In this document: positions 1 through 10,344 of the stretch, in pieces | How positions within the stretch are numbered: position 1 is the first letter of the stretch | Layout of the letters: each line of letters begins with the position of its first letter | Origin: a virus | Strand: one strand, 5' to 3' | DNA: 10,344 bases | Virus genome (UHGV): UHGV-1717511 | Notes under the pieces: generated by a model | The model's input: only the letters and a program-made list of their open reading frames with translations | Told to the model about the DNA's origin: nothing | The model's database searches: none | Program-made: the position numbers and the translations under genes

Positions 1-46
1 TACACGTAAGGAGTCGTCGGCAGCGTCAGATGTGTATAAGAGACAG
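1..46. other. Synthetic library adapter: tail of P5 (tacac), an 8-nt i5 index (gtaaggag), then the Nextera read-1 adapter TCGTCGGCAGCGTC plus the 19-nt Tn5 mosaic end AGATGTGTATAAGAGACAG (28..46). Not biological.
   Basis: Seen in sequence: exact match to the Nextera transposase adapter as I recall it. The index gtaaggag matches my memory of index 505; that should be checked against the vendor list. Confidence 0.9.
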
Positions 47-107
47 ATATTTGATGGTATATTTATATAAGAAGTTGAAAGCTCATTAGAAAACAAAGGA
101 AAAACGC

Positions 108-1343
108 ATGACTACTACTGCACTGCAAAATGAAAAAAATCCTTCTGATTACCTTGTTTGCAAGTGGTGCGGAAAATCATTTCACTATTTTAAGTCCCAT
201 GTAGCCAATGGTAATTGCGAGGGCATTCCTGAGTCAGTAAAAGATGCCGATCCTGACACCGTACTGAAAATGTACACAACGCAGTTTCCAGATGAGCCAA
301 CGCTATCGAAAAAGGCACTTGATGCAATTCAAGCTAAACGTGCCGAGCAAAAAAGCGAAATGGCCAAATCATCTGGCGTGACCAATAGCCCAGGCTATAC
401 AGGCACAGTTGAGTACAAGACAGATCTGGTCGCAGCTCACGAACTGCTAAATGTAACGGTGAAAGAACTCGGAACAAAACGTGGGACGCCGCTCATGGTT
501 AGCGTCAACGTCAATACGCCGTTTCCAGAGTTCGTTCCAGAAGTGAAGAAGGGATACGTATATGGCGACTTCGAACTGATCAAAGACATTTTCATGATGC
601 TTGAACTTGGCATACCAGGCTATTTGTGGGGTCATGCAGGAACAGGCAAATCTTCATTGCCTACACAACTATGTGCTTTGCTCAATCGTCCGTTAATCCG
701 TGCCCAACATACAGCATCAATGGAAGAGGCTCATGTTACGGGACAAATTCTGGCGCGTGATGGCTCTACGTATTTCGAGCCTGGCTTGCTTGCGCTCGCA
801 ATGAAGCATGGCTGGGTTTACCTCGCGGATGAATACGACTTTGCGTTTCCACAGATTCTTGGCGTGTATCAGCCAGTGCTGGAAGGTGAAGCGTTGGTCA
901 TCAAAGAGGCGACTCCAGAATGGCGTCGCATTACTCCGCATGAACGGTTTGCTTTCATTGGCACTGGCAACACGAACGGATCTGGTGATGAAACCGGCTT
1001 GTACCAGGGTACAAACATCCAGAACGCCGCTAACTTTTCGCGTTTTGGCATCGTTTCGAATGTGAAATACATGAGCAAAGAGGCAGAGATCAGCATGTTG
1101 ATAAATGCTGGCATCGTGGATGAATACGCTGAAAAGATGGTTAAGTTTGCCGGTATCGTTCGCGATGGATACGAAGAACACCTGATCAGTCAGCCGATTG
1201 GCCCTCGTGAACTTTTGTTGTCGGCCAAGATTGGAATGATGCGAGGCGACTTTGTGACAGGTATTGAGCGTTCTTTCATTAACAAACTCCCTTCAGCTTC
1301 TGCGCAAGCGGCACGTGAAGTTGTTCAAAAAATATTTGGTTAA
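108..1343 (+). CDS. CobS-like AAA+ ATPase (MoxR/CobS family), 411 aa, with an N-terminal extension of about 170 aa
   Basis: Seen: Walker A GHAGTGKSS, Walker B VYLADEYD, and the stretch FAFIGTGNTNGSGDETGLYQGTNIQNAANFSRFGI, which parallels the CobS sensor region as I recall it. SD aagga sits 7 nt upstream of the ATG at 108. Family call is from memory of CobS motifs, not a search. Confidence 0.8.
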   Translation: MTTTALQNEKNPSDYLVCKWCGKSFHYFKSHVANGNCEGIPESVKDADPDTVLKMYTTQFPDEPTLSKKALDAIQAKRAEQKSEMAKSSGVTNSPGYTGTVEYKTDLVAAHELLNVTVKELGTKRGTPLMVSVNVNTPFPEFVPEVKKGYVYGDFELIKDIFMMLELGIPGYLWGHAGTGKSSLPTQLCALLNRPLIRAQHTASMEEAHVTGQILARDGSTYFEPGLLALAMKHGWVYLADEYDFAFPQILGVYQPVLEGEALVIKEATPEWRRITPHERFAFIGTGNTNGSGDETGLYQGTNIQNAANFSRFGIVSNVKYMSKEAEISMLINAGIVDEYAEKMVKFAGIVRDGYEEHLISQPIGPRELLLSAKIGMMRGDFVTGIERSFINKLPSASAQAAREVVQKIFG

Positions 1344-1395
1344 TCGTGCGTAAAGGATGTTTCGGCTCTCTTATCGCTGCTTCTGAAACTGGCAA

Positions 1396-1422
1396 GGCTT
1401 GTCTGGTGTGTCCAGACAAGCC
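1396..1422 (+). other. Perfect 11-bp stem / 5-nt loop hairpin (GGCTTGTCTGG tgtgt CCAGACAAGCC) in the 180-nt gap between the ATPase gene and dnaE; no T-tract follows
   Basis: Seen in sequence. It is not a canonical intrinsic terminator because no U-run follows. Function is inferred (RNA processing or regulatory structure). Confidence 0.5.
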
Positions 1423-1523
1423 CGATTGTCACCAATCAGCAAAAGAAGTTGCGATTTCGATGTATGGGAAGTTCGTAGGCTTCCCCAATGACAAAATCAA
1501 AAAAACCAGAAAGGTAAAAACAC

Positions 1524-4500
1524 ATGAAGGCTCTGATGGTTCGAACTGACTTCTCTCTTGGGGAGTCGGCTCTAAAAGCAGAAAACGCGGTGAAGATTGC
1601 CAGAGAAGCTGGCTACACCGCTGTAATTTCGGCAGATAGCATGAATATTGCGAGTGTTATTCCACTACAACGTGCCGCTGGTGACGACATGGCGGTTATT
1701 TGTGGTGTGAAACTAAACATTGTTGATGATCCCACATACGAGCACCGGGCTAAACTTGCTAAAGAGTCTATGGGATGTATGGAATCATTAGAGCGTGGGC
1801 GGAACTACTCCTTTACCGCTCTAATTAAAAATGAGCAGGGATATCGAGACATCTGCGAACTAATGACGGCGGCCAACACACGAGAACAGTTCTACTTTGT
1901 ACCGCGTCTCTCGCTCGAACAGTTGGTTTCTACATATGCCAAAGGCAACATCATCCTGCTCACTGCCGACATCGGTAGCGTGTTCCAACGCAACGATTTT
2001 GCAAAAATCATAAGCTCACTGATTACAGCGGGTGGAAAAGACAACTTCTATAGTGTGGTTTATCCGCACCCTACCCCATTCTACGACCAGATTAACGTCC
2101 GGGCGATGAAAGTCGCCAGCGCACTGAAAATAGAGCCAGTAGCGTTCTATCCCGCTTATTACGAATCGATCGACGATGCAGACATTAAAGACATTGCGCA
2201 CATGGTTACGAACAACATCAAAATCGACCAGCCGCATCGTCTGCGTATCCCCCACCAGCGAGATAACGCCGTCAATGGTCGCCGCCATCTCCTTGAGGCG
2301 CTGAAAGCCTTCTCCGTTCGCATGGATGTGCCGGTAACAGCTGCAATGGCCTCAACAACGCAGGATACCATTATCGATGCCTGCACATGGCGCTGGCATG
2401 AATTGCCACCAGCACTGCCAAAGATGGCAGACGACGAGCCTGCAACGCTGATGAAACTGGCCGTTGCTGGGCTGCGTAAACGTCTTACCACAAAAGAGTT
2501 TGGCTACACACCACCGGCTTCTGAGAACAGGGTTTATGTTGAGCGACTTAAGTACGAAATGGACACGCTTACTCGCCTGGGATTTTGTGGTTACTTCCTG
2601 ATGGTACGCGATCTGATGAATCACAGCCGTGAAACTGGCATTCCTGTCGGGCCTGGTCGTGGTTCCTCCGCTGGCTCTTTGGTGGCATGGTGCATAGGCA
2701 TAACCAACGTCGACCCTATCCGTCACGGTCTTCTGTTTGAACGTTTCATCAACCCTGAGCGTCTCGACTTGCCAGATGCGGACTTGGACTTCAGCCAGGC
2801 ACGTCGCCATGAGGTGATCGAGTATCTGAATGAACGCTACGGCGAAGATTACGTTGCAGGCATTCCGAACTTCACCTACCTGGGCGCGGCCTCTGCACTA
2901 CGTGACACCGCTCGTATTTATGGTGTGGAGTCCGCAGATATGGCGGTATCAAAAGAACTGAAGAACGTCGAGGATGATAGCCTTCCATTGGAAGAGCTGC
3001 GCGAACAACTGGCAAGCCTCGACAAATACGCGACAAAATATCCTGATGCATTCAATGCAGCCTGCAAGTTACAAAGCCTTATGCGTGGCTATGGTAGACA
3101 TGCGGCAGGGATGATCGTAGCAGGTGTTCCTCTGACAGAACGAACACCGGTTGAACGACGTGGTGACGCGCGTTGTATCGCATTTGACAAGCGTTACTGC
3201 GAGGCTATGGGCCTAATTAAGCTGGACGTACTTGGCCTGGCGACTCTCGATTTGCTCGATAGTGCAAAACGCTACATTAAAGAGAACACAGGTGAGGATA
3301 TCAATCTTGATGCCATTTCTCTTGAAGATCGCAAGGTGCTGGATGGTTTTGCTGCTGGGTACACTCAAGGTGTTTTCCAGCTTGAATCAGGCCCAATGCG
3401 CAAGCTGCTTAAAGATTTAGGTGGTGGAATTGAGCCAATGAGCTTTAAAACGGTCGTTGCTACGACTGCGCTCTTCCGGCCGGGGCCAATTCAGTCAGGC
3501 ATGTTGGATGATTATGTTTCTGTCGCCAAAGGCTTTATGACGCCGGAATCATTACACCCCGTTCTTGATGAACTTACCGCAGAAACAAATGGCGTGATTC
3601 TTTATCAGGAACAGACGATGAACGCGACTCGATTGCTTGCGGGCTTCACAATGGCTGAAGCTGACGGCGTTCGTAAAGCGATCGGCAAAAAAGACATGGA
3701 GAAAATGAAGAGCATGGGTGAGAAGTTCATCGTTCAGGCTCAAGCTGGCTGGATAGACGTTGAGCTGGAAGATGGCACTACACAGCGCATTCACCGTGCG
3801 GAACATTTTAAATGCGAAGACGGAACACTGAAAACTGTCGAAGAGGCGCTTGAACACGGCGCAAAACTACCTATAAACGCAGTACGCGTGACAGCGTCAC
3901 ACCCAGGGCTATCAGAGATGAAAGCGAAGGAGATCTGGACCGCATTCGAAAAAAATGGTGCCTACCAGTTCAACAAATCACACTCTGTTGCTTACTCCTT
4001 GATCAGTTATCAATCTATGTGGTTGAAAACTCATTATCCCGCAGAGTTTTTCGCTGCTGCTCTCACTATTCTTGGCGAAGATAAACACCAGGGGCTGGTT
4101 AAAGATGCGCTGACCTATGGTATTCGCGTATTGCCACCAGACGTTAACGTGTCATCCAACCGAATCGAGATCCGCACGCTTGAAGATGGCAGCCAGGTGC
4201 TGTATGCGCCCTTCTCTGCTGTGAAGGGGTGTTCTGAGAATGGCTGCCAAGCCATCATGAGAGCGCGAGAAAAAGTTGGCGGCAAATTCGAGTCACTGGC
4301 GCAATTCGAAGAAGCTGTCGAGAAACGTGCCTGTAATAGTCGAGTGCGCGAATCGCTGCAAAAAGTAGGGGCGTTTGCATCCATCGAGCCAGGTAGTCTG
4401 CCAGCAACTGATCCAGAGCGCCTACGCGACCAGGCTGAATTGATGGGAAACCTTGTCATAGACGCAGTTAAAGCCTCACGTCCGTTTGAGATGAACCCCA

Positions 4501-5042
4501 AACGTTCGGCTGAGATTAACGTGCTCATGACACGGATGGCGGCTGAAATGGGCTTAGGTGATGAACTAATCCGCCCCAGCATTGGTATTAAGCCGAAAAT
4601 CATGATCATTCTGGACAATGCGAACGGCAATGATGCTCGAACCGGTTACTTTATGGAGAACGGATACGACGATTTTAAGGCCAAGCTATTGACGGCTGGA
4701 GATTTACGCATGGGCGATCTCTATGTCACAGGCGTTTGCAAGAAGGTTAAAGACAAAGAAAAAGACTACACCAAAGACGAGATCGGCCAGTTCACCGACT
4801 TTATGCGTGAAGAGATCAATCTGGTGCGTCCAACCTATGTGCTGACGTGTGGCAGCCGGGCGACATCGCTCTTCAACAACAAGAGCAAACCATCCGACCT
4901 GGTTGGACGCAAAGAGTATCTGCCGGAGCTGGATGTGACTGTTTTCTACGGATTTAACCCGAATATTTTGTACTTTCGCCCAGAGGAAGGCGAAAAGCTG
5001 GAAGCAATTCTTGCAGAGGTAGCGGAGACTATTAGCAAATGA
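1524..5042 (+). CDS. dnaE: DnaE-type DNA polymerase III alpha-like catalytic subunit, 1172 aa, with an extra C-terminal domain (about aa 1023-1172) resembling a degenerate UDG fold
   Basis: Seen: GFCGYFLMVRDLMNHSRETGIPVGPGRGSSAGSLVAWCIGITNVDPIRHGLLFERFINPERLDLPDADLDF (Pol III alpha palm signature), ILYQEQTMNATRLLAGFTMAEADGVRKAIGKK and YQFNKSHSVAYSLISYQSMWLKTHYPAEFFAA. The first PHP motif lacks the canonical His pair (MVRTDFSLGES). SD aagg is 9 nt upstream of the ATG. Assignment rests on established DnaE motifs recalled from memory. Confidence 0.9.
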   Translation: MKALMVRTDFSLGESALKAENAVKIAREAGYTAVISADSMNIASVIPLQRAAGDDMAVICGVKLNIVDDPTYEHRAKLAKESMGCMESLERGRNYSFTALIKNEQGYRDICELMTAANTREQFYFVPRLSLEQLVSTYAKGNIILLTADIGSVFQRNDFAKIISSLITAGGKDNFYSVVYPHPTPFYDQINVRAMKVASALKIEPVAFYPAYYESIDDADIKDIAHMVTNNIKIDQPHRLRIPHQRDNAVNGRRHLLEALKAFSVRMDVPVTAAMASTTQDTIIDACTWRWHELPPALPKMADDEPATLMKLAVAGLRKRLTTKEFGYTPPASENRVYVERLKYEMDTLTRLGFCGYFLMVRDLMNHSRETGIPVGPGRGSSAGSLVAWCIGITNVDPIRHGLLFERFINPERLDLPDADLDFSQARRHEVIEYLNERYGEDYVAGIPNFTYLGAASALRDTARIYGVESADMAVSKELKNVEDDSLPLEELREQLASLDKYATKYPDAFNAACKLQSLMRGYGRHAAGMIVAGVPLTERTPVERRGDARCIAFDKRYCEAMGLIKLDVLGLATLDLLDSAKRYIKENTGEDINLDAISLEDRKVLDGFAAGYTQGVFQLESGPMRKLLKDLGGGIEPMSFKTVVATTALFRPGPIQSGMLDDYVSVAKGFMTPESLHPVLDELTAETNGVILYQEQTMNATRLLAGFTMAEADGVRKAIGKKDMEKMKSMGEKFIVQAQAGWIDVELEDGTTQRIHRAEHFKCEDGTLKTVEEALEHGAKLPINAVRVTASHPGLSEMKAKEIWTAFEKNGAYQFNKSHSVAYSLISYQSMWLKTHYPAEFFAAALTILGEDKHQGLVKDALTYGIRVLPPDVNVSSNRIEIRTLEDGSQVLYAPFSAVKGCSENGCQAIMRAREKVGGKFESLAQFEEAVEKRACNSRVRESLQKVGAFASIEPGSLPATDPERLRDQAELMGNLVIDAVKASRPFEMNPKRSAEINVLMTRMAAEMGLGDELIRPSIGIKPKIMIILDNANGNDARTGYFMENGYDDFKAKLLTAGDLRMGDLYVTGVCKKVKDKEKDYTKDEIGQFTDFMREEINLVRPTYVLTCGSRATSLFNNKSKPSDLVGRKEYLPELDVTVFYGFNPNILYFRPEEGEKLEAILAEVAETISK

Positions 5043-5182
5043 ACAAAGCGAACACCATGAAGGTGGCCAAAGAGCAAAGAGTTTATGGAAGTAAACAAGA
5101 TTGGCGATGTGAGACAGTACAGGCTGAAGCGCCAGACCAGAGTCACGCTATCCAATATTTTTGGTAAGAAAGTCGCCTAATG

Positions 5183-5213
5183 AAAAGCTCGTCAATTGAC
5201 GAGCTTTTCATTT
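5183..5213. terminator. Bidirectional intrinsic terminator between the convergent dnaE (+) and the antisense gene (-): palindrome AAAAGCTCGTC aatt GACGAGCTTTT followed by CATTT
   Basis: Seen: perfect palindrome with a GC-rich core and A/T arms, giving a U-run after the stem on either strand. It lies 3 nt from the - strand stop codon (TAG, + 5216..5218). Confidence 0.65.
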
Positions 5214-5215
5214 GA

Positions 5216-6199
5216 CTATCTTGAATTAGGGGCTTTCTCTATAATTATTCGATTCAGAATATGATTACGATCACTGTATGGTTCGAAATGTTCTGCAATC
5301 GAGTATGAACCGACACTACGTGCGACCACATCTTCAAAATATTCAAGGATTTTAGGTAGATACTTTTCATAATTTTGTGAACAAATCGACACTACAGGAT
5401 CGAATTCTACTAATCGACGCTTTACACGTATATGGTTATTTATTTTTTCATATTCATTCATCATAGAGTTCAAGTCTGGTACTACCCGCTCAGGGCTACA
5501 CAGGTAGGTGCTGCGGTCATACTCGTCTCCGAATTTATCAAGAGGAACACCTATCTCTAGCAACGTCTTGTTTACTCGCTTTGCAAGCTCAATTATCTCT
5601 TTATCTTCTTCTGTAAGCCACATGTCGACCCACTTTGGTTTGTCTGCCCATTCAGACAGATAATCATCCTTATTGAAAGTTACAGGAGCACATCCAGAGT
5701 CACTTCTTAATGCTTTATCCTTTATTTTAGAAATTGTTTTTTTATCTAAATGCTTCCAATAAATAGCAGGTTCGTCTAATTCATTATCATCGTGTAGGCA
5801 TATCAAAACAATTACCACAGGAAAATCACAACTTCCCCAATAGGTTATATTTTTATAAGGTATTTGTACGCTTAACCTTCTCTTCATTTTGCGTGAGGTG
5901 GTTTTTATCTGAACGCCGATAAAAAAACCTGTCGAAAGATTATTTTCATATATTTCAACCTGAGCATCCAATCCCATATCAATATCTAGCAATCGACAAG
6001 GCCATCTGAAATAACGAGAAATCCAATAGGCAAACAAGTACTCTCCAGCGTGTCCATCCGCACTGGTTTTCGGATATGTCATACCTTCAGTTTTATTCTT
6101 TTCTGCCGCTGGCTTTACAGACTTAGCTTTTGGGGGGAGGGCTGTTTTTTTAGTCGGCACTGACTTTGTTGCTTTGACTTGTTTGTTAGCCTTATCCAT
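5216..6199 (-). CDS. AT-rich antisense gene: predicted PD-(D/E)xK-type nuclease-like protein (DUF4365-like core) with an N-terminal Lys/Ala/Pro-rich tail, about 327 aa. A TTG at 6214 would add 5 aa; the ATG at 6199 is more likely.
   Basis: Seen: long ORF; tail KQVKATKSVPTKKTALPPKAKSVKPAAEKNK; core GHAGEYLFAYWISRYFRWPCRLLDIDMGLDAQVEIYENNLSTGFFIGVQIKTT, i.e. a D-x-D ... E ... Q-x-K arrangement. Hand counts on several 60-nt lines give roughly 23-43% GC here against roughly 47-60% in neighbouring genes. Family resemblance is from memory, not a search. No strong SD; AGGAGG is 20 nt upstream of the TTG. Confidence 0.65.
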   Translation of the reverse strand: MDKANKQVKATKSVPTKKTALPPKAKSVKPAAEKNKTEGMTYPKTSADGHAGEYLFAYWISRYFRWPCRLLDIDMGLDAQVEIYENNLSTGFFIGVQIKTTSRKMKRRLSVQIPYKNITYWGSCDFPVVIVLICLHDDNELDEPAIYWKHLDKKTISKIKDKALRSDSGCAPVTFNKDDYLSEWADKPKWVDMWLTEEDKEIIELAKRVNKTLLEIGVPLDKFGDEYDRSTYLCSPERVVPDLNSMMNEYEKINNHIRVKRRLVEFDPVVSICSQNYEKYLPKILEYFEDVVARSVGSYSIAEHFEPYSDRNHILNRIIIEKAPNSR

Positions 6200-6300
6200 T
6201 GGTTTTATTCTCAATTTGCTTTGCTCGGTGTGCCTCCTGATTCTGCACCTTAGCGCCGATACTGTCTACCGCCAATCATGACAGTAAAGCTCTATTTGTT

Positions 6301-6309
6301 TGATATAAT
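6301..6309 (+). promoter_or_regulatory. Putative sigma70-type extended -10 element TGATATAAT, about 35 nt upstream of the next + strand gene; weak -35-like ATGACA at 6278..6283 with a 20-nt spacer
   Basis: Seen: exact TGnTATAAT. It is placed where + strand transcription would need to restart after the bidirectional terminator and the antisense gene. Promoter activity is inferred. Confidence 0.4.
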
Positions 6310-6342
6310 CAGATACACGAAAGTAAGTTTGAGCATATCAAT

Positions 6343-6774
6343 ATGAACACCGATATTTACGAGAAAATAATGTCTGATCTCGAGTTTGACAGAGACAATC
6401 TGGAAGACGTCTGGCGTAAACAACCTCGCCTGTTGATGGAGTATGGTTCAAAGCTCGCCCATGCAGAAAGAAGTGTCGCAGAGGCAAAACTTAACCTTGA
6501 AGCTGTTGAAGCAAAGCTATACGACACAGAGCGTAAAAACTTGAGTATGAACGGCATTAAGTTTAACGAATCTGTACTAGACGCTAAGGTTAAAACAAAC
6601 CCACAGTATCTGTCTAAACGGCAGAAGTTGGATGAAGCACGGCACATCGCAGACATATACAAACATGCTGTCGCCGCCTTTTCGCATCGCCGAGACATGA
6701 TCGTTCAGGCGTCGAAGATGGCTATCGTTGAATTAGAGCGATTAGGCTCTGAACGCTTTATTACTCCCCGTTGA
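6343..6774 (+). CDS. Small helical protein, possibly a UvsY-like recombination mediator, 143 aa (alternative start ATG at 6370)
   Basis: Seen: ORF with weak RBS. Size and segments such as DAKVKTNPQYLSKRQKL and HAVAAFSHRRDMI resemble T4 UvsY as I recall it. Context supports it: upstream of a gp32-like SSB and a RecA-family recombinase. Function is inference. Confidence 0.45.
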   Translation: MNTDIYEKIMSDLEFDRDNLEDVWRKQPRLLMEYGSKLAHAERSVAEAKLNLEAVEAKLYDTERKNLSMNGIKFNESVLDAKVKTNPQYLSKRQKLDEARHIADIYKHAVAAFSHRRDMIVQASKMAIVELERLGSERFITPR

Positions 6775-6778
6775 TTTT

Positions 6779-6809
6779 TGATAGATAATAAGTAAGTACT
6801 GATCTATCA
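6779..6809 (+). promoter_or_regulatory. AT-rich inverted repeat TGATAGAT-N15-ATCTATCA in the leader upstream of the SSB gene; candidate operator or RNA structure
   Basis: Seen: 8-bp perfect inverted repeat arms. A regulatory role is inferred only. Confidence 0.3.
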
Positions 6810-6891
6810 TTTAACAGCTCGAAAGAGCCACGAATGAACGAAAGCCCAACGCGCATAGCGCCATCGGCCAAATCACAACAAGGAGAAACAC

Positions 6892-7920
6892 ATGTCTAAG
6901 ACATTACTTGATTTGCTTAACAAAACTCGTGAAGACATTGCCGCCAAACGTGGCAACAACGTTGATCTGACTCGTTTAAAAGACGGCGTCAACTATATCC
7001 GCATCTTCCCGAATAAAGACGACCCAAACGGTAAGTTCTTCCAGACTTTCGGTATGCACTACGTTAAGTATCAGAACGAGGAAGGTAAAGAAGCAACCAA
7101 CGCTTATATTTGTGAGCAACATACTCACGGTCGCGCTTGTCAGCTATGCGAAATGGTGATGGAAGGTCGCGCTCGTCACAAGGGTAACAAAGCAATGGAA
7201 GAACGCATCGGTCAAATGCGTGCCACTCCTCGCTACCTGGTCAACGGCATTCTTTCTGCTCGTGAGGATTTCGCAGATGCTGAGAAATGCCAGTTAATCG
7301 AGCTGCCGTCTACTGTATTCGATGATATCTGCAAAGCAATCACCGAAGACATCGCTGATGATATCGGCAATCCACTGAGCAAAGAGGAAGGCTACGCATT
7401 CCTGATTAAACGTACTGGCTCTGGTCGCGATACCAAATATGACGTCTCGCCTAAGCGTAAAGTCTACAAAGGCGATATCGAAGATAAATTCTGGAACACC
7501 CAGCATGATCTGATCGCATACGCAAATCAGGCTGATGAAACTCGTCTTCTGTCGACAGTTCGCACTATGGGTCGTCTGATTGGCATCGCTGCACCAACTG
7601 CCGCAGCATCTGCACCAGCAATTTCCTCAACCGCGAAAACATCGGCTGCGGCACTACCTGGATTTGGCTCTGTCACTGGTCATACAGAAGGAGCGACGGC
7701 TGTAGCAACCGCGCACACACCGGCTTCTGAACCAACCAGTCTGGTTGATGAAGAAATCCTCCGTGCCGTTGAAACTGAATTTAAACCAGAGGCAAGTTCC
7801 GCTGCCGTTGCCGTATCAGTCAAAGAGTCTGAAGCAGTCGCAGCGACATCTGTAGCAACCGCATCTGCGACGGAAGATGAAGGTCTGGATGACCTACTGA
7901 GAGAGCTGGACTCTCTGTAA
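6892..7920 (+). CDS. T4 gp32-like single-stranded DNA-binding protein, 342 aa, with zinc-binding His/Cys cluster, long Ala/Ser/Thr-rich linker and acidic C-terminal tail
   Basis: Seen: NYIRIFPNKDDP ... YICEQHTHGRACQLCE (H/C/C/C-type cluster as in gp32 subdomain I), and acidic end EDEGLDDLLRELDSL. SD aggag is 6 nt upstream of the ATG. Family call from memory of T4 gp32. Confidence 0.8.
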   Translation: MSKTLLDLLNKTREDIAAKRGNNVDLTRLKDGVNYIRIFPNKDDPNGKFFQTFGMHYVKYQNEEGKEATNAYICEQHTHGRACQLCEMVMEGRARHKGNKAMEERIGQMRATPRYLVNGILSAREDFADAEKCQLIELPSTVFDDICKAITEDIADDIGNPLSKEEGYAFLIKRTGSGRDTKYDVSPKRKVYKGDIEDKFWNTQHDLIAYANQADETRLLSTVRTMGRLIGIAAPTAAASAPAISSTAKTSAAALPGFGSVTGHTEGATAVATAHTPASEPTSLVDEEILRAVETEFKPEASSAAVAVSVKESEAVAATSVATASATEDEGLDDLLRELDSL

Positions 7921-7938
7921 TCCCATTACGTGACCAGT

Positions 7939-7965
7939 AAGGCGTCTACGGACGCCTTACTTTTT
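7939..7965 (+). terminator. Intrinsic terminator after the SSB gene: AAGGCGTC tacg GACGCCTT followed by acTTTTT
   Basis: Seen: 8-bp GC-rich stem, 4-nt loop, T-run. Confidence 0.7.
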
Positions 7966-7980
7966 GGAAGGAATGTACCG

Positions 7981-8925
7981 GTGAATTATCTCTTCGTAGA
8001 TGGCAATAGCCTGGGTTATTACCACCAACAATCTGACAAATTGCACAACGGCGAAATGGAAGTACAGGCTGCTTTCGGCTTTGTTAAGAACGTCCGTCGT
8101 TATGCCTCCATCCTCCATGCCCGACCTATGATTCTTTGGGATGGATTTAGTGACAAGCGTCGCGACTTTTACCCGGACTACAAAGCAAATCGCGACGACG
8201 ATCCTGATATGAAAAAGATGAAGGAAGGCTTTGCTATCCAGAAGCCATACATCCTCAAAATGATGACCGCGCTTGGTGTTAACCAAATCATTGCAAAAGA
8301 TGCAGAAGCGGATGATCTGGCCGGGCTGCTGGTATCCCGCATGGCACCGCAGCCAACCGTTGAACACATCTATCTGTTAACAGGCGATAGCGACTGGCTT
8401 CAGTTAGTTCGCGAAAACGTAAGCTGGGTAAGCCTGCGTGAAGACGCCAAAAACAAGCAGGTTAATTTTGAGCAATTTGCGGAGCTGACAGGATTCGCCA
8501 CGCCTCGCGCATTTTTGGAAGCAAAAGCATTACAAGGCGATAACTCGGACAACATTAGCGGTGTTGGTGGCATTGGTGCTGGCGGTGCGAAAGAGCTGCT
8601 GCATGAATGGGGAAGTGTCGCAACGATGGTACGCGGCATCAACGACGGCTCAATCGTGGTTAATAAAGGGCGTCATAAGACCGCCTTCAACAAACTAGCG
8701 AAGAATGCCTTCAACGAGAAAACAGGCTGTCGAATGCTCGAAGCGTTCAAGAGAAACATCACGCTAATGAACCTGATTGAGACGAAGTTTCCGCCTACCG
8801 AAATCGAAACAATCAAAGGCAATCGTGACGTGAAAGCATTCGAGCAACTGTGCTACGAGCTGAATTTCCGTTCGTTCCTTGAAGACCTTGAAGTGTTTGT
8901 TCTTCCATTCGAAAGGTATTGCTAA
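7981..8925 (+). CDS. 5'-3' exonuclease / flap endonuclease (FEN, RNase H-like, Pol I 5'-exo family), 314 aa, GTG start
   Basis: Seen: LFVDGNSLGYY, YKANR, EADDLAGLL, GDSDWLQLV and the H3TH-like LQGDNSDNISGVGGIGAGGAKELL. GGAAGGA lies 8 nt upstream of the GTG at 7981. The ORF-track start at 7930 would put the terminator hairpin inside the CDS, so I prefer 7981. Confidence 0.85.
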   Translation: MNYLFVDGNSLGYYHQQSDKLHNGEMEVQAAFGFVKNVRRYASILHARPMILWDGFSDKRRDFYPDYKANRDDDPDMKKMKEGFAIQKPYILKMMTALGVNQIIAKDAEADDLAGLLVSRMAPQPTVEHIYLLTGDSDWLQLVRENVSWVSLREDAKNKQVNFEQFAELTGFATPRAFLEAKALQGDNSDNISGVGGIGAGGAKELLHEWGSVATMVRGINDGSIVVNKGRHKTAFNKLAKNAFNEKTGCRMLEAFKRNITLMNLIETKFPPTEIETIKGNRDVKAFEQLCYELNFRSFLEDLEVFVLPFERYC

Positions 8926-9191
8926 TGCTTAAATCGATTATCAATGGCGCTACAACCACCCCTGCCCAACTGGCAAAAGAGATTGTCTTTTATCACGGTG
9001 AGTACGCTGTCATCGCACTGCCGTCAATTCTAGGCGCTGCCGGAATGAAAGCGACAGATCGCGAGTTTGGATTAGTCAGCGAGCAGGTCGTAAAAATCCT
9101 CGCTCGTGTATCCAGACTCCTTAACCACGATGCGATTGTATTCGATGAATCCGCCGCTTTAAAACGAATCAACGAAACAAAAGGAGCCTGA
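8925..9191 (+). CDS. Hypothetical protein, 88 aa; its ATG overlaps the FEN stop (TAATG), suggesting translational coupling
   Basis: Seen: ORF with aaagg 8 nt upstream of the ATG at 8925; the ORF track begins 6 nt earlier at a TTG. No recognisable motif. Confidence 0.55.
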   Translation: MLKSIINGATTTPAQLAKEIVFYHGEYAVIALPSILGAAGMKATDREFGLVSEQVVKILARVSRLLNHDAIVFDESAALKRINETKGA

Positions 9192-9193
9192 TC

Positions 9194-10267
9194 ATGGCAA
9201 AAGGAAAATCCGCACTGGCACTTGCTCTGAAAAAGAAAATCGGTAGCAACGACGAAATTCAGAAAGTAACTCATTGGATTGATACAGGCTTTCCACCGTT
9301 AAACAAAGCTATTTCTGGTCGTTACGATGGCGGCTTCCCATGTGGTCGTATCGTCGAAGTATTCGGTCCTCCAAGTGCAGGGAAAACGTTCCTTGCAACA
9401 GCAGCGATGATCTCCGCTCAAAAACAAGATGGTCTGGCGGTATTCCTCGATCATGAAAACAGTTTTGACGTTGGCCTGGCTGTAGCCAATGGCCTGAACG
9501 CAGATGAGGATGACGGTCAGTGGGTATACAAGCAGCCTGACACCTTCGAAGACTCTGTAGAGTTGATCGGCACAATACTTAAATTGGTACGTGATGAAGA
9601 GCTTATCCCTGAATCAGCACCTATCTGTATCGTGGCTGACTCACTTGCGTCTATGGTTCCGAACTCCAAAGCCGAGAAGTTCGAAAAGATGGCTGAAGGC
9701 ACTGCCAAAGACAAAGATCAGCTAAACATGAACGACAATACGGCACTGGCTCGTGCGACAAGTGCGAACTTCCCTACTCTGGCTTTGTGGGCACGCAAAT
9801 ACAACGCCTGCATCATCTTCTTGAATCAGGTTCGCACAAAAATCGGTGTAATGTTTGGCGACCCTACTACGTCGCCAGGTGGAGATTCACCGAAGTTCTA
9901 CGCTTCTGTACGTATCCGTCTTGGTGCATCGGTGATGAAGGATGGTAAAGAGAAGATCGGCCAGGACGTAGGCGCAGAATGCATCAAAAACAAAGTTGCA
10001 CCACCGTATGGCAAATGCACCTGGAAATTCTACTTCGATCCTACTCGTGGCCTCGACGTTATCGAATCGCTCGTCGAGTACATGCTGGAAGAAGGATACC
10101 TGCCAAAGAACGCCAGCGGGCGAGTTGAAATTGGTGACAAGAAATACACCAAATCGCAGATCGTCGAGATGTATCGGGAGAAGCCACTGGCTGAAATCAT
10201 TGCGGCTTTGCAGGCAATCGACGACCGAAGAGCAAAAGACAACCCCACCGAGTCAGTAGAAGAGTAA
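9194..10267 (+). CDS. recA: RecA-family recombinase (phage-encoded, RecA/UvsX-like), 357 aa
   Basis: Seen: Walker A GPPSAGKTF, QPDTFEDSVEL, and IIFLNQVRTKIGVMFGDPTTSPGGDSPKFYASVRIRLG, which is close to the bacterial RecA core [38 protein letters not shown]. SD aaggag is 7 nt upstream of the ATG. Confidence 0.9.
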   Translation: MAKGKSALALALKKKIGSNDEIQKVTHWIDTGFPPLNKAISGRYDGGFPCGRIVEVFGPPSAGKTFLATAAMISAQKQDGLAVFLDHENSFDVGLAVANGLNADEDDGQWVYKQPDTFEDSVELIGTILKLVRDEELIPESAPICIVADSLASMVPNSKAEKFEKMAEGTAKDKDQLNMNDNTALARATSANFPTLALWARKYNACIIFLNQVRTKIGVMFGDPTTSPGGDSPKFYASVRIRLGASVMKDGKEKIGQDVGAECIKNKVAPPYGKCTWKFYFDPTRGLDVIESLVEYMLEEGYLPKNASGRVEIGDKKYTKSQIVEMYREKPLAEIIAALQAIDDRRAKDNPTESVEE

Positions 10268-10271
10268 ACAC

Positions 10272-10296
10272 AAGGCGTCCACAGGACGCCTTTTTT
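10272..10296 (+). terminator. Intrinsic terminator after the recombinase gene: AAGGCGTCC aca GGACGCCTT TTTT
   Basis: Seen: 9-bp stem, 3-nt loop, T-run. The stem sequence is nearly identical to the terminator at 7939..7965. Confidence 0.7.
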
Positions 10297-10299
10297 ATC

Positions 10300-10344
10300 C
10301 TGTCTCTTATACACATCTCCGAGCCCACGAGACGCTACGCTATC
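10300..10344. other. Synthetic library adapter: reverse-complement Tn5 mosaic end CTGTCTCTTATACACATCT, then CCGAGCCCACGAGAC, an 8-nt index (gctacgct) and atc (start of the P7 tail). Not biological.
   Basis: Seen: exact match to the Nextera read-2 side adapter as recalled. The index looks like index 709 from memory and should be checked. Confidence 0.9.

What the first reader, a model, noticed from the sequence alone, without database searches (positions are those of the whole stretch)
6343..10267. Compact recombination and replication-restart cluster: UvsY-like, gp32-like SSB, FEN, 88-aa hypothetical, RecA-family recombinase
The gene order and tight spacing (stop/start overlap TAATG at 8923..8927, 2-nt gap before the recombinase gene) suggest one transcription unit with an internal terminator after the SSB gene, allowing differential expression. 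The recombinase looks closer to bacterial RecA than to T4 UvsX, yet it sits with T4-style partners (gp32-like, possibly UvsY-like). No helicase, primase or clamp genes fall in the window, so they must lie outside it.
Basis: partly seen in the sequence, partly recalled or inferred. Interest (0 to 1): 0.4.

Follow-up and report, generated by a model that had tools for sequence, protein, structure and literature searches.

The report
Phage-plasmid recombination genes: UvsY-like, gp32-like, RecA-like

Summary
Positions 6343-10267 carry five co-oriented genes:
- a 143-aa protein
- a gp32-family SSB
- a T5/Pol I-type 5' flap endonuclease
- an 88-aa helical protein
- a RecA-family recombinase

The TAATG overlap, the 2-nt gap and a conserved intrinsic terminator after the SSB gene are all present.

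Both were tested and neither occurred:
- The recombinase is 32% identical to E. coli RecA and 22% to T4 UvsX. It belongs to a mobile-element RecA clade (100/100 bootstrap), so it is not a recent host capture.

The window is an SSU5-like phage-plasmid. It is 99.9% identical to E. coli plasmids and is found on plasmids in 251 of 5,426 complete genomes. The UvsY-like, gp32 and RecA genes lie close together in all six distant relatives I examined.

Corrections:
- The flap endonuclease gene starts at GTG 7981, not 7930.
- A conserved promoter-like element precedes the SSB gene, so "one transcription unit" is too simple.
- "Replication restart" is inferred, not shown.

Phage Cyrano already carries these annotations. 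Low interest.

The parts
6301..6309 (+). Extended -10 promoter-like element TGATATAAT upstream of the uvsY-like gene
   Evidence: Read directly from the sequence. It is conserved as TGnTAnAAT about 33 nt before the start codon in 50 distinct upstream sequences, although the DNA further upstream is unrelated between loci. Promoter function is inferred.
6343..6774 (+). 143-aa UvsY-fold protein, the putative recombination mediator
6781..6810 (+). Inverted repeat ATAGAT-N15-ATCTAT overlapping a sigma-70-like site (TAGATA-17-TATCAT); putative regulated promoter of the SSB gene
   Evidence: Promoter scan hit at 6782-6810. The block TAAGTAAGTACTGATCTAT is invariant or nearly so (two of its columns vary in one or two of 15 diverse relatives), and the key -35 and -10 positions are invariant. 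The repeat occurs once in each SSU5-family locus that has it and nowhere else in phage Cyrano. Function is inferred.
6817..6868 (+). Two conserved hairpins (6817-6828 and 6844-6868) in the putative leader of the SSB gene, followed by an unstructured A/C-rich stretch with AAGGAG at 6880-6885
   Evidence: Single-sequence fold and consensus fold. Stems are invariant or show only wobble-compatible changes, while loops vary. There are no compensatory changes, so the structure is not proven.
6892..7920 (+). gp32-family single-stranded-DNA-binding protein (342 aa)
   Evidence: Pfam gp32 E 1.7e-66, 224.7 bits against a cut-off of 26.8. phrog_1192 SSB 1e-115. Cys74-x8-Cys83-x2-Cys86 with nearby His residues, and the last 110 residues have pI 4.19 and end in ...EDEGLDDLLRELDSL.
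7936..7965 (+). Intrinsic terminator or attenuator after the SSB gene
   Evidence: 11-bp G+C-rich stem, loop TACG, T5 tail. Folded with its flanks (7915-7985): -25.3 kcal/mol, z -3.5. Nearly invariant in 18 distinct relatives while the flanks vary.
7981..8925 (+). 5' flap endonuclease / 5'-3' exonuclease (314 aa, GTG start)
   Evidence: PF02739 plus PF01367, both above their cut-offs. The closest solved structures are the T5 D15 exonuclease and the Pol I/Taq 5' nuclease domain, about 1e-14. The start is fixed by frame-breaking indels upstream in relatives and by the terminator position, and it matches the SSU5 annotation.
8925..9191 (+). 88-aa helical protein of unknown function, translationally coupled on both sides
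9194..10267 (+). RecA-lineage recombinase (357 aa) of a mobile-element clade; this allele has no intein
   Evidence: Pfam RecA 2.2e-42. TIGR02012 scores 153.7 bits, below the equivalog cut-off of 325.3. 32% identity to E. coli RecA against 22% to T4 UvsX. Walker A GPPSAGKT at 58, IVADS at 146 and a RecA-type L2 segment NQVRTKIGVMFG at 211. The NJ clade has 100/100 support.
10272..10298 (+). Intrinsic terminator ending the block
   Evidence: 9-bp stem AAGGCGTCC/GGACGCCTT followed by T6. Folded with its flanks (10262-10303): -15.6 kcal/mol, z -4.8.

Best explanation
The segment is the conserved homologous-recombination module of an SSU5-type phage-plasmid of E. coli.

Shown here:
- A UvsY-fold protein.
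- A gp32-family SSB with a zinc-finger pattern and an acidic tail.
- A T5/Pol I-type flap endonuclease.
- A small lineage-specific helical protein.
- A RecA-lineage recombinase of a mobile-element clade.
- These five genes are colinear across the whole SSU5 family.
- The UvsY-like, gp32 and RecA genes lie close together and in this order in much more distant phages.

Inferred mechanism, by analogy with the T4 UvsX-UvsY-gp32 system:
1. After induction, the SSB coats single-stranded DNA.
2. The UvsY-like mediator binds SSB-covered DNA and loads the RecA-like recombinase.
3. Strand invasion creates D-loops that repair breaks and prime replication by the DnaE polymerase encoded just upstream.
4. 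The flap endonuclease removes primers and flaps.

Inferred expression:
- An extended -10 promoter (6301-6309) drives the uvsY-like gene.
- A second, probably repressible, promoter-like site (6782-6810) drives the SSB gene.
- A conserved terminator (7936-7965) lets only part of the transcription continue into FEN, orf88 and recA, which are translationally coupled. The SSB would therefore be made in excess.
For: - Identity of the element: 97% nucleotide identity to phages PhiR41_1 and CMS-2020a, 94.6% to Cyrano and 82.6% to SSU5. It is 99.9% identical to E. coli plasmids and plasmid-borne in 251 of 5,426 genomes.
- UvsY fold: with weak profile links to UvsY families.
- SSB, FEN and RecA domains.
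- Colinearity in about 80 IMG/VR loci.
- The same gene order in Rhizobium phage RHph_Y2_11, whose RecA is 43% identical and whose 180-aa protein matches the family at hhalign probability 99.9%.
- Five further distant family members are each followed by a gp32 gene, directly or after one small ORF, with a RecA gene downstream wherever the contig extends far enough (four of the five). One of these phages uses PolA plus DnaB instead of DnaE.
- The close relative Cyrano also encodes UvsW, SbcCD, RuvC, a helicase, a primase and a ligase.
- In the LF82 lysogen the four homologous genes are transcribed at background level (about 7-12), while the neighbouring HicAB genes reach 141-294 (S1 Table of PMC9928086). 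This fits lytic-cycle genes.
- Terminators and promoter-like elements.
Against: - There is no biochemical or genetic evidence for any of these proteins.
- The 143-aa protein itself has no Pfam UvsY match.
- Profile comparisons with the single T4 UvsY sequence are not significant, so the homology rests on fold, weak bridging profile hits and gene neighbourhood.
- Long helical hairpins can converge in shape.
- The promoters, read-through at the terminator and translational coupling are read from sequence only.
- The leader hairpins show no compensatory changes.
- No clamp, clamp loader or gp59-type helicase loader is annotated in the relative, so a full T4-like recombination-dependent replication pathway is not demonstrated.
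Confidence: 0.75

Rival explanations
1. The 143-aa protein is a generic helical-hairpin or coiled-coil protein, such as a scaffold, a regulator or a membrane-remodelling-type protein, that resembles UvsY only by convergence. The recombinase would then work with the SSB alone or with host factors.
Against: - Some family members match UvsY profiles, with phrog_231 down to 1.2e-7 and PF11056 down to 7e-5.
- The gene lies close upstream of gp32 and RecA genes in six distant contexts, including a phage with a different polymerase.
Confidence: 0.12
2. The module serves the plasmid state rather than lytic replication. It might resolve or repair plasmid copies, or provide a second RecA to the host.
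For: The element is maintained as a plasmid, and all 259 matches in E. coli genomes are on plasmids. RecA-like proteins are persistent genes of the SSU5 supergroup (PMC7969092).
Against: In the lysogen the homologous genes of Cyrano are at background transcription, while true lysogeny-expressed genes next to them are 10-30 times higher. The block sits among lytic replication and nucleotide-metabolism genes.
Confidence: 0.1
3. All five genes form a single operon from one promoter, and the terminator is the only internal control point.
For: The genes are co-oriented and tightly spaced. FEN, orf88 and recA overlap or are 2 nt apart. No strong consensus promoter was found inside the block.
Against: The 117-nt uvsY-gp32 spacer holds a promoter-like site whose key -35 and -10 positions and 17-nt spacing are invariant across relatives. 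It is followed by a conserved structured leader, a pattern typical of a separate regulated start.
Confidence: 0.3
4. The recombinase gene is a recent capture of the host recA gene.
For: It matches Pfam RecA and is called 'recombinase RecA' by PGAP.
Against: - Identity to E. coli RecA is only 32%.
- It scores below the RecA equivalog cut-off, 153.7 bits against 325.3.
- Hundreds of relatives at 47-56% identity sit on contigs of about 100-120 kb from many phyla.
- The clade has 100/100 bootstrap support and is separate from bacterial RecA.
Confidence: 0.01

Closest known systems
Bacteriophage T4 presynaptic system: UvsX recombinase, UvsY mediator, gp32 SSB
   Same: A UvsY-fold protein and a gp32-family SSB with a zinc-finger pattern and an acidic C-terminal tail, together with a RecA-superfamily recombinase. 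The relative also has UvsW, SbcCD (the gp46/47 analogue) and a resolvase.
   Different: - The recombinase belongs to the RecA lineage, not the UvsX lineage.
- The three genes are contiguous here.
- The polymerase is DnaE-type, not family B.
- No clamp, clamp loader or gp59 is annotated.
- The UvsY-like protein is too diverged to match Pfam UvsY.
Annotated module of Escherichia phage Cyrano (OV696614; CYRAN_52-55) and Salmonella phage SSU5 (SSU5_056-060)
   Same: The same genes in the same order at 83-100% protein identity. Cyrano's record and the S1 Table of PMC9928086 already name them 'UvsY recombination mediator', 'SSB T4 gp32-like', 'Exonuclease' and 'RecA'.
   Different: - The Cyrano RecA carries a 422-aa LAGLIDADG intein, and the window allele does not.
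- The slot upstream holds HicAB in Cyrano and a DUF4365 nuclease gene here.
- orf88 is not annotated in Cyrano.
- Cyrano's UvsY start is placed 9 codons downstream.
Bacterial RecA with SSB and RecFOR
   Same: The recombinase core, Walker motifs and L2 loop are RecA-like: NQVRTKIGVMFGDPTTSPGG here against [20 protein letters not shown] in RecA.
   Different: - 32% identity, with a shorter N-terminus, an expanded L1 region and a C-terminal part beyond residue 305 that does not align with RecA in BLASTP or phmmer.
- The partners are gp32-like and UvsY-like, not an OB-fold SSB and RecFOR.
Phage T5 D15 flap endonuclease / Pol I 5' nuclease domain
   Same: Both Pfam domains are present, and the best solved relatives are T5 exonuclease structures.
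   Different: Low identity, with phmmer E about 1e-14. The gene sits between the SSB and recombinase genes.

Membership tests
UvsY recombination mediator (T4 type) | UvsY fold: four helices forming a long helical hairpin | tested here: met
UvsY recombination mediator (T4 type) | Significant match to the curated UvsY sequence profile (Pfam PF11056) | tested here: not met
   No Pfam family at E<=0.1 for the window protein. Only 4 of 43 family members match PF11056, best E 7e-5. phrog_231 'UvsY-like' gives E 1.2e-4 for the window protein and matches 11 of 43 members.
UvsY recombination mediator (T4 type) | Genetic association with a gp32-type SSB and a RecA/UvsX-type recombinase | tested here: met
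   Next to a gp32 gene, or one small ORF away, in the SSU5 family, in Rhizobium phage RHph_Y2_11 and in five distant metagenomic relatives; a RecA gene lies downstream wherever the contig reaches that far.
UvsY recombination mediator (T4 type) | Ring (heptamer) assembly, ssDNA binding through conserved basic residues, and stimulation of recombinase loading | not testable with these tools
   By eye, EAKLYD (56-61) lines up with T4 KARLDY (58-63) and R116 with T4 R120, using a T4 sequence recalled from memory. This is a lead only.
gp32 family SSB | Match to Pfam PF08804 above the gathering score | tested here: met
   224.7 bits against a cut-off of 26.8, covering profile positions 1-208.
gp32 family SSB | Zinc-binding Cys/His cluster and an acidic C-terminal protein-interaction tail | tested here: met
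   Cys74, Cys83 and Cys86 with His56/77/79. The last 110 residues have pI 4.19. BLASTP aligns the Cys cluster with that of T4 gp32, using a recalled sequence. Metal binding itself was not tested.
Bacterial RecA (TIGR02012 equivalog) | Score above the curated equivalog cut-off | tested here: not met
   153.7 bits against a cut-off of 325.3. It is a RecA-lineage protein, not an ortholog of cellular RecA.
RecA family (Pfam PF00154) | RecA domain with Walker A and B motifs and a RecA-type L2 loop | tested here: met
   145.8 bits against a cut-off of 27. Motifs lie at 58, 146 and 211. 32% identity to E. coli RecA over 280 residues.
UvsX (T4-type recombinase) | Closer to UvsX than to RecA | tested here: not met
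   T4 UvsX 3io5 scores 27.8 bits, against 109-124 bits for RecA chains. 22% identity. It lies far from T4 and S-PM2 UvsX in the tree.
Sak4 (short RecA-core annealase) | Core-only protein of about 230 aa that groups with Sak4 | not tested
   No Sak4 reference sequence was available. At 357 aa, with N- and C-terminal regions and a RecA-type L2 loop, membership is unlikely.
5'-3' exonuclease / flap endonuclease (Pol I N-terminal type) | Both the PF02739 and PF01367 domains above their cut-offs | tested here: met
   87.0 bits (cut-off 34.3) and 46.2 bits (cut-off 40). The best solved relatives are T5 exonuclease structures.
SSU5-type phage-plasmid | Nucleotide identity and gene order shared with SSU5, Cyrano and related elements, and plasmid location | tested here: met
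Intrinsic (Rho-independent) terminator | G+C-rich hairpin followed by a T run, downstream of a stop codon | tested here: met
   Sites at 7936-7965 and 10272-10298, conserved in relatives. Termination efficiency was not tested.

The most novel reading that the evidence does not exclude
The 143-aa protein may represent a very large, mostly unannotated family of UvsY-fold mediators. A profile search found 3,485 clusters at 50% identity with E<=1e-3, and the matching PHROG families are labelled 'unknown function'. These proteins would load RecA-lineage recombinases, not UvsX-lineage ones, onto gp32-coated DNA. That would make this a hybrid presynaptic system linking the bacterial RecA and T4 UvsX worlds, widespread in phages and phage-plasmids of about 100 kb. 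A further possibility is that the conserved structured leader of the SSB gene is a gp32-style autoregulatory operator.
Probability: 0.45. Interest if true: 0.45.

Novelty: already known. Interest (0 to 1): 0.22.

Why it matters
- **Annotation.** RefSeq labels three of the five genes 'hypothetical' on plasmids in about 5% of complete E. coli genomes, and the matching PHROG families have no assigned function. The fold match and gene-neighbourhood evidence justify naming the 143-aa family 'UvsY-like mediator' and the 342-aa protein 'gp32-like SSB'.
- **Biology.** A UvsY/gp32 pair appears to serve a RecA-lineage recombinase. The trio also moves as a unit between phages with different polymerases.
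- **Limits.** None of this changes current understanding of recombination, and no experiment supports any of it yet.

Tried and rejected
**Sequence routes to UvsY that gave nothing significant**
- phmmer of the 143-aa protein and a family profile against PDB sequences.
- hhalign of alignments A1 and A3 against one T4 UvsY sequence recalled from memory.
- Local phmmer and hmmsearch, which gave about 10 bits, in register at the N-terminus only.

**A neighbourhood idea that failed**
- I thought the 423-aa protein upstream of the UvsX-like gene in Staphylococcus Kayvirus might be the long form of this family (phrog_1069). hhalign rejected this at probability 0.2%.

**orf88**
- No match in Pfam, NCBIfam or PADLOC.
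- Foldseek against BFVD gave nothing at E<=0.001.
- The AFDB50 library was not available.

**RNA features**
- Rfam found nothing near gathering scores, and there are no tRNA genes.
- The hairpins in the SSB gene leader show no compensatory changes.

**Inverted repeat at 6781-6807**
- Three searches used the wrong spacing.
- With the correct spacing, the repeat occurs once in each SSU5-family locus that has it and nowhere else in Cyrano. It is therefore not a repeated operator.

**Other points**
- The terminator scan missed the hairpin after the SSB gene; folding confirmed it.
- Host-derived recA was rejected.
- GTG 7930 as the FEN start was rejected.

Full report
**What the window is.** Bases 47-10299 belong to an SSU5-type phage-plasmid of Escherichia coli.
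- Megablast gives 97% identity to phages PhiR41_1 and CMS-2020a, 94.6% to Cyrano (the pLF82 phage-plasmid) and 82.6% to Salmonella phage SSU5.
- The right half is 99.9% identical to three E. coli plasmids. Related sequence occurs in 251 of 5,426 complete E. coli genomes, always on plasmids.
- Both ends of the window are Nextera adapter sequence, at 14-46 and 10300-10333.

**Gene map.**

| Coordinates | Strand | Product |
|---|---|---|
| 108-1343 | + | CobS-like AAA_5 ATPase |
| 1346-1549 | + | 67-aa ORF |
| 1524-5042 | + | DnaE-type polymerase with a UDG-family-4-like C-terminus |
| 5216-6214 | - | DUF4365 protein, low G+C |
| 6343-10267 | + | the five genes of the finding |

**Checking the observation.**
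- All five ORFs lie where stated.
- The TAATG stop/start overlap at 8923-8927 and the 2-nt gap before ATG 9194 are in the sequence.
- The terminator after the SSB gene is an 11-bp G+C-rich hairpin at 7936-7961 followed by T5. Folded with its flanks (7915-7985) it gives -25.3 kcal/mol, z -3.5. The hairpin is nearly invariant in 18 distinct relatives while its flanks vary.
- That hairpin lies inside the N-terminal extension that the longest ORF (GTG 7930) would imply. Relatives carry single-base indels between 7930 and 7980.
- The flap endonuclease gene therefore starts at GTG 7981, preceded by GGAAGGA. This gives 314 aa, as annotated in SSU5.
- A second terminator at 10272-10298 closes the block.

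**The 143-aa protein.**
- It has no Pfam or NCBIfam match. It belongs to phrog_2058 ('unknown function') and touches phrog_231 'UvsY-like recombination mediator' only weakly, at E 1.2e-4.
- Close homologues are confined to SSU5-type elements of Enterobacteriaceae.
- A profile of 16 of them, searched against 1.84 billion representatives, found 3,485 proteins at E<=1e-3. Many are 250-420 aa long with the domain at the C-terminus.
- An AlphaFold2 model built on the alignment is confident (pLDDT 90.7) and has four helices.
- Of 43 diverse family members, 11 match phrog_231 (best 1.2e-7) and 4 match Pfam UvsY (best 7e-5).
- Direct profile comparisons with a single T4 UvsY sequence are not significant.
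- I therefore call it a remote UvsY homologue on the basis of fold plus context, not a member of the curated UvsY sequence family.

**Gene neighbourhood as an independent test.**
- In about 80 IMG/VR loci of the SSU5 family the order uvsY-like, gp32, FEN, orf88, recA is kept with the same spacing.
- Rhizobium phage RHph_Y2_11 has a RecA 43% identical to the window's. Its gene order is CobS, sigma factor, two small ORFs, DnaE, a 180-aa protein, a small ORF, SSB, 5'-3' exonuclease, two small ORFs, RecA, ASCH, then SbcD and SbcC a few genes further on.
- That 180-aa protein matches the family at hhalign probability 99.9%, and its SSB is gp32-like.
- I looked up five further distant members. Each is followed by a gp32 gene, directly or after one small ORF. 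A RecA gene lies downstream in four of them; in the fifth the contigs end before that point.
- One of these (L097) has a family A polymerase and DnaB instead of DnaE, and there the three genes are directly contiguous.
- The trio is the conserved core. FEN is usually present. orf88 is specific to the SSU5 group.

**The recombinase.**
- Solved RecA proteins score 109-124 bits, phage UvsX-type proteins 28-44 bits, and RadA about 25-28 bits.
- BLASTP gives 32% identity to E. coli RecA (E 2e-40) and 22% to T4 UvsX (E 3e-9). Both reference sequences were recalled from memory.
- The L2 region is clearly RecA-like. The N-terminus is shorter, the L1 region is expanded, and the part beyond residue 305 does not align with RecA.
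- It scores 153.7 bits against TIGR02012, below the 325.3-bit equivalog cut-off.
- A database search shows a large set of relatives at 47-56% identity. Many sit on contigs of about 100-120 kb from Xenorhabdus, Vibrio, Magnetospirillum and metagenomes.
- In a neighbour-joining tree this mobile-element clade is monophyletic in 100 of 100 bootstraps. It lies next to cellular and some phage RecAs and far from T4 and S-PM2 UvsX.
- The tree is small and distance-based, so only the coarse placement should be trusted. That placement is enough to exclude a recent capture from the host.

**The other proteins.**
- SSB: a full-length gp32-family match with a Cys-x8-Cys-x2-Cys cluster. A long Ala/Ser/Thr-rich linker leads to an acidic tail ending LDDLLRELDSL. 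By eye this tail resembles the end of T4 gp32; that is a lead from a recalled sequence, not a test.
- FEN: it has both 5'-3' exonuclease domains, and its closest solved relatives are T5 D15 structures.
- orf88: a real conserved gene within the SSU5 group. It is predicted to be helical with moderate confidence. No informative structural or sequence relative was found.

**Expression signals (all inferred from sequence).**
- A TGnTAnAAT extended -10 element about 33 nt upstream of the uvsY-like start is conserved, although the DNA further upstream differs completely between loci.
- The 117-nt spacer before the SSB gene contains a near-invariant block in which an inverted repeat (ATAGAT-N15-ATCTAT) overlaps a TAGATA-17-TATCAT site.
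- This is followed by two hairpins with invariant stems and variable loops, then an unstructured stretch with a strong AAGGAG.
- The hairpins show no compensatory changes, so the structure is unproven.
- The SSB gene therefore appears bracketed by its own start signal and a terminator.
- In the LF82 lysogen the homologous Cyrano genes are at background transcription, while the adjacent HicAB genes are 10-30 times higher (S1 Table of PMC9928086). This points to lytic-cycle use.

**Rest of the genome.** Cyrano's record lists a helicase, a primase and a ligase about 13 kb upstream. Elsewhere it lists SbcCD-like nuclease, RuvC, a Pol III epsilon-like exonuclease, RNase H and UvsW. No clamp or clamp loader is annotated.

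**What is known already.**
- The ENA record of Cyrano and the supplementary table of PMC9928086 already name these genes 'UvsY recombination mediator', 'SSB T4 gp32-like', 'Exonuclease' and 'RecA'.
- RecA-like proteins are listed among persistent genes of the SSU5 supergroup (PMC7969092).
- No paper in the searched library discusses UvsY together with SSU5. RefSeq still calls three of the five genes hypothetical.
- The finding is therefore a correct reading of a known module. The added value here is the structural and contextual support for the UvsY assignment, the corrected FEN start, and the evidence that the trio is widespread.

**Verdict.** The module is already known at the annotation level, has not been characterised experimentally, and is of low interest.

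Noticed in passing
window 1-46 and 10300-10344: Both ends are sequencing-library sequence. Nextera read-1 adapter TCGTCGGCAGCGTCAGATGTGTATAAGAGACAG lies at 14-46, and the reverse complement of the read-2 adapter lies at 10300-10333, each with short index-like tails. These ends also explain the spurious megablast hits to unrelated phage records.
   Followed up: yes
window 5216-6214 (- strand); terminator 5179-5212: A 332-aa protein with a DUF4365 (Mrr/DREN-like nuclease) domain and G+C of 0.377 against about 0.48 for its neighbours. It matches a PADLOC Argonaute-associated REase model at E 1.7e-10. It sits in a variable cargo slot between dnaE and the uvsY-like gene that ranges from about 135 bp to 2.5 kb. 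Cyrano has HicAB there. Homologues at 40-100% identity occur in 11 of 82 loci. A strong bidirectional terminator flanks it.
   Followed up: partly
L001 15779-18118 (Cyrano RecA), L090 9275-11452 and about 20 other loci: The recA-like gene is polymorphic for an intein of about 422 aa (Intein_splicing plus a LAGLIDADG homing endonuclease). The intein is inserted in the P-loop between Lys64 and Thr65 of GPPSAGK|T. The window allele has no intein.
   Followed up: partly
L009 2563-6875 and about 17 other loci; window 1524-5042: In some relatives dnaE is split into 787-aa and 389-aa ORFs by a free-standing 244-aa HNH_3/NUMOD3 homing-endonuclease gene. The window's dnaE is intact. Its C-terminal 120 residues or so resemble family-4 uracil-DNA glycosylase (TIGR00758, 1.1e-7).
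   Followed up: partly
window 6781-6891: The leader region of the gp32-like gene has a near-invariant inverted repeat overlapping a promoter-like site, two conserved hairpins, then an unstructured A/C-rich ribosome-binding region. The layout recalls the autoregulated T4 gene 32 leader, but no covariation supports the structure.
   Followed up: partly
window 6321-6340 and 6790-6809: The 20-nt pattern AAGTAAGT-N7-TATCA occurs twice, once ending 3 nt before the uvsY-like ATG and once in the uvsY-gp32 spacer. None is expected by chance. In relatives only an ATAAG(T/C) core is kept at the first site.
   Followed up: partly
L059 and L070: Two IMG/VR relatives have deletions inside the module. L059 lacks most of the gp32 gene, all of FEN and half of orf88. 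L070 lacks gp32 and part of FEN. These may be decaying elements.
   Followed up: no
window 108-5042; L083, L090, L094, L095: The order CobT/CobS-like AAA ATPase, sometimes a sigma-70-like factor, then DnaE(+UDG), followed by the recombination genes, is conserved from E. coli phage-plasmids to Rhizobium phages and metagenomic contigs of about 110 kb. The role of the CobS/CobT-like pair next to the polymerase is unexplained.
   Followed up: no
L079 and L082, upstream of the uvsY-like gene: A short tandem repeat (CACCTTCA)n lies in the variable slot upstream of the conserved promoter in two relatives.
   Followed up: no
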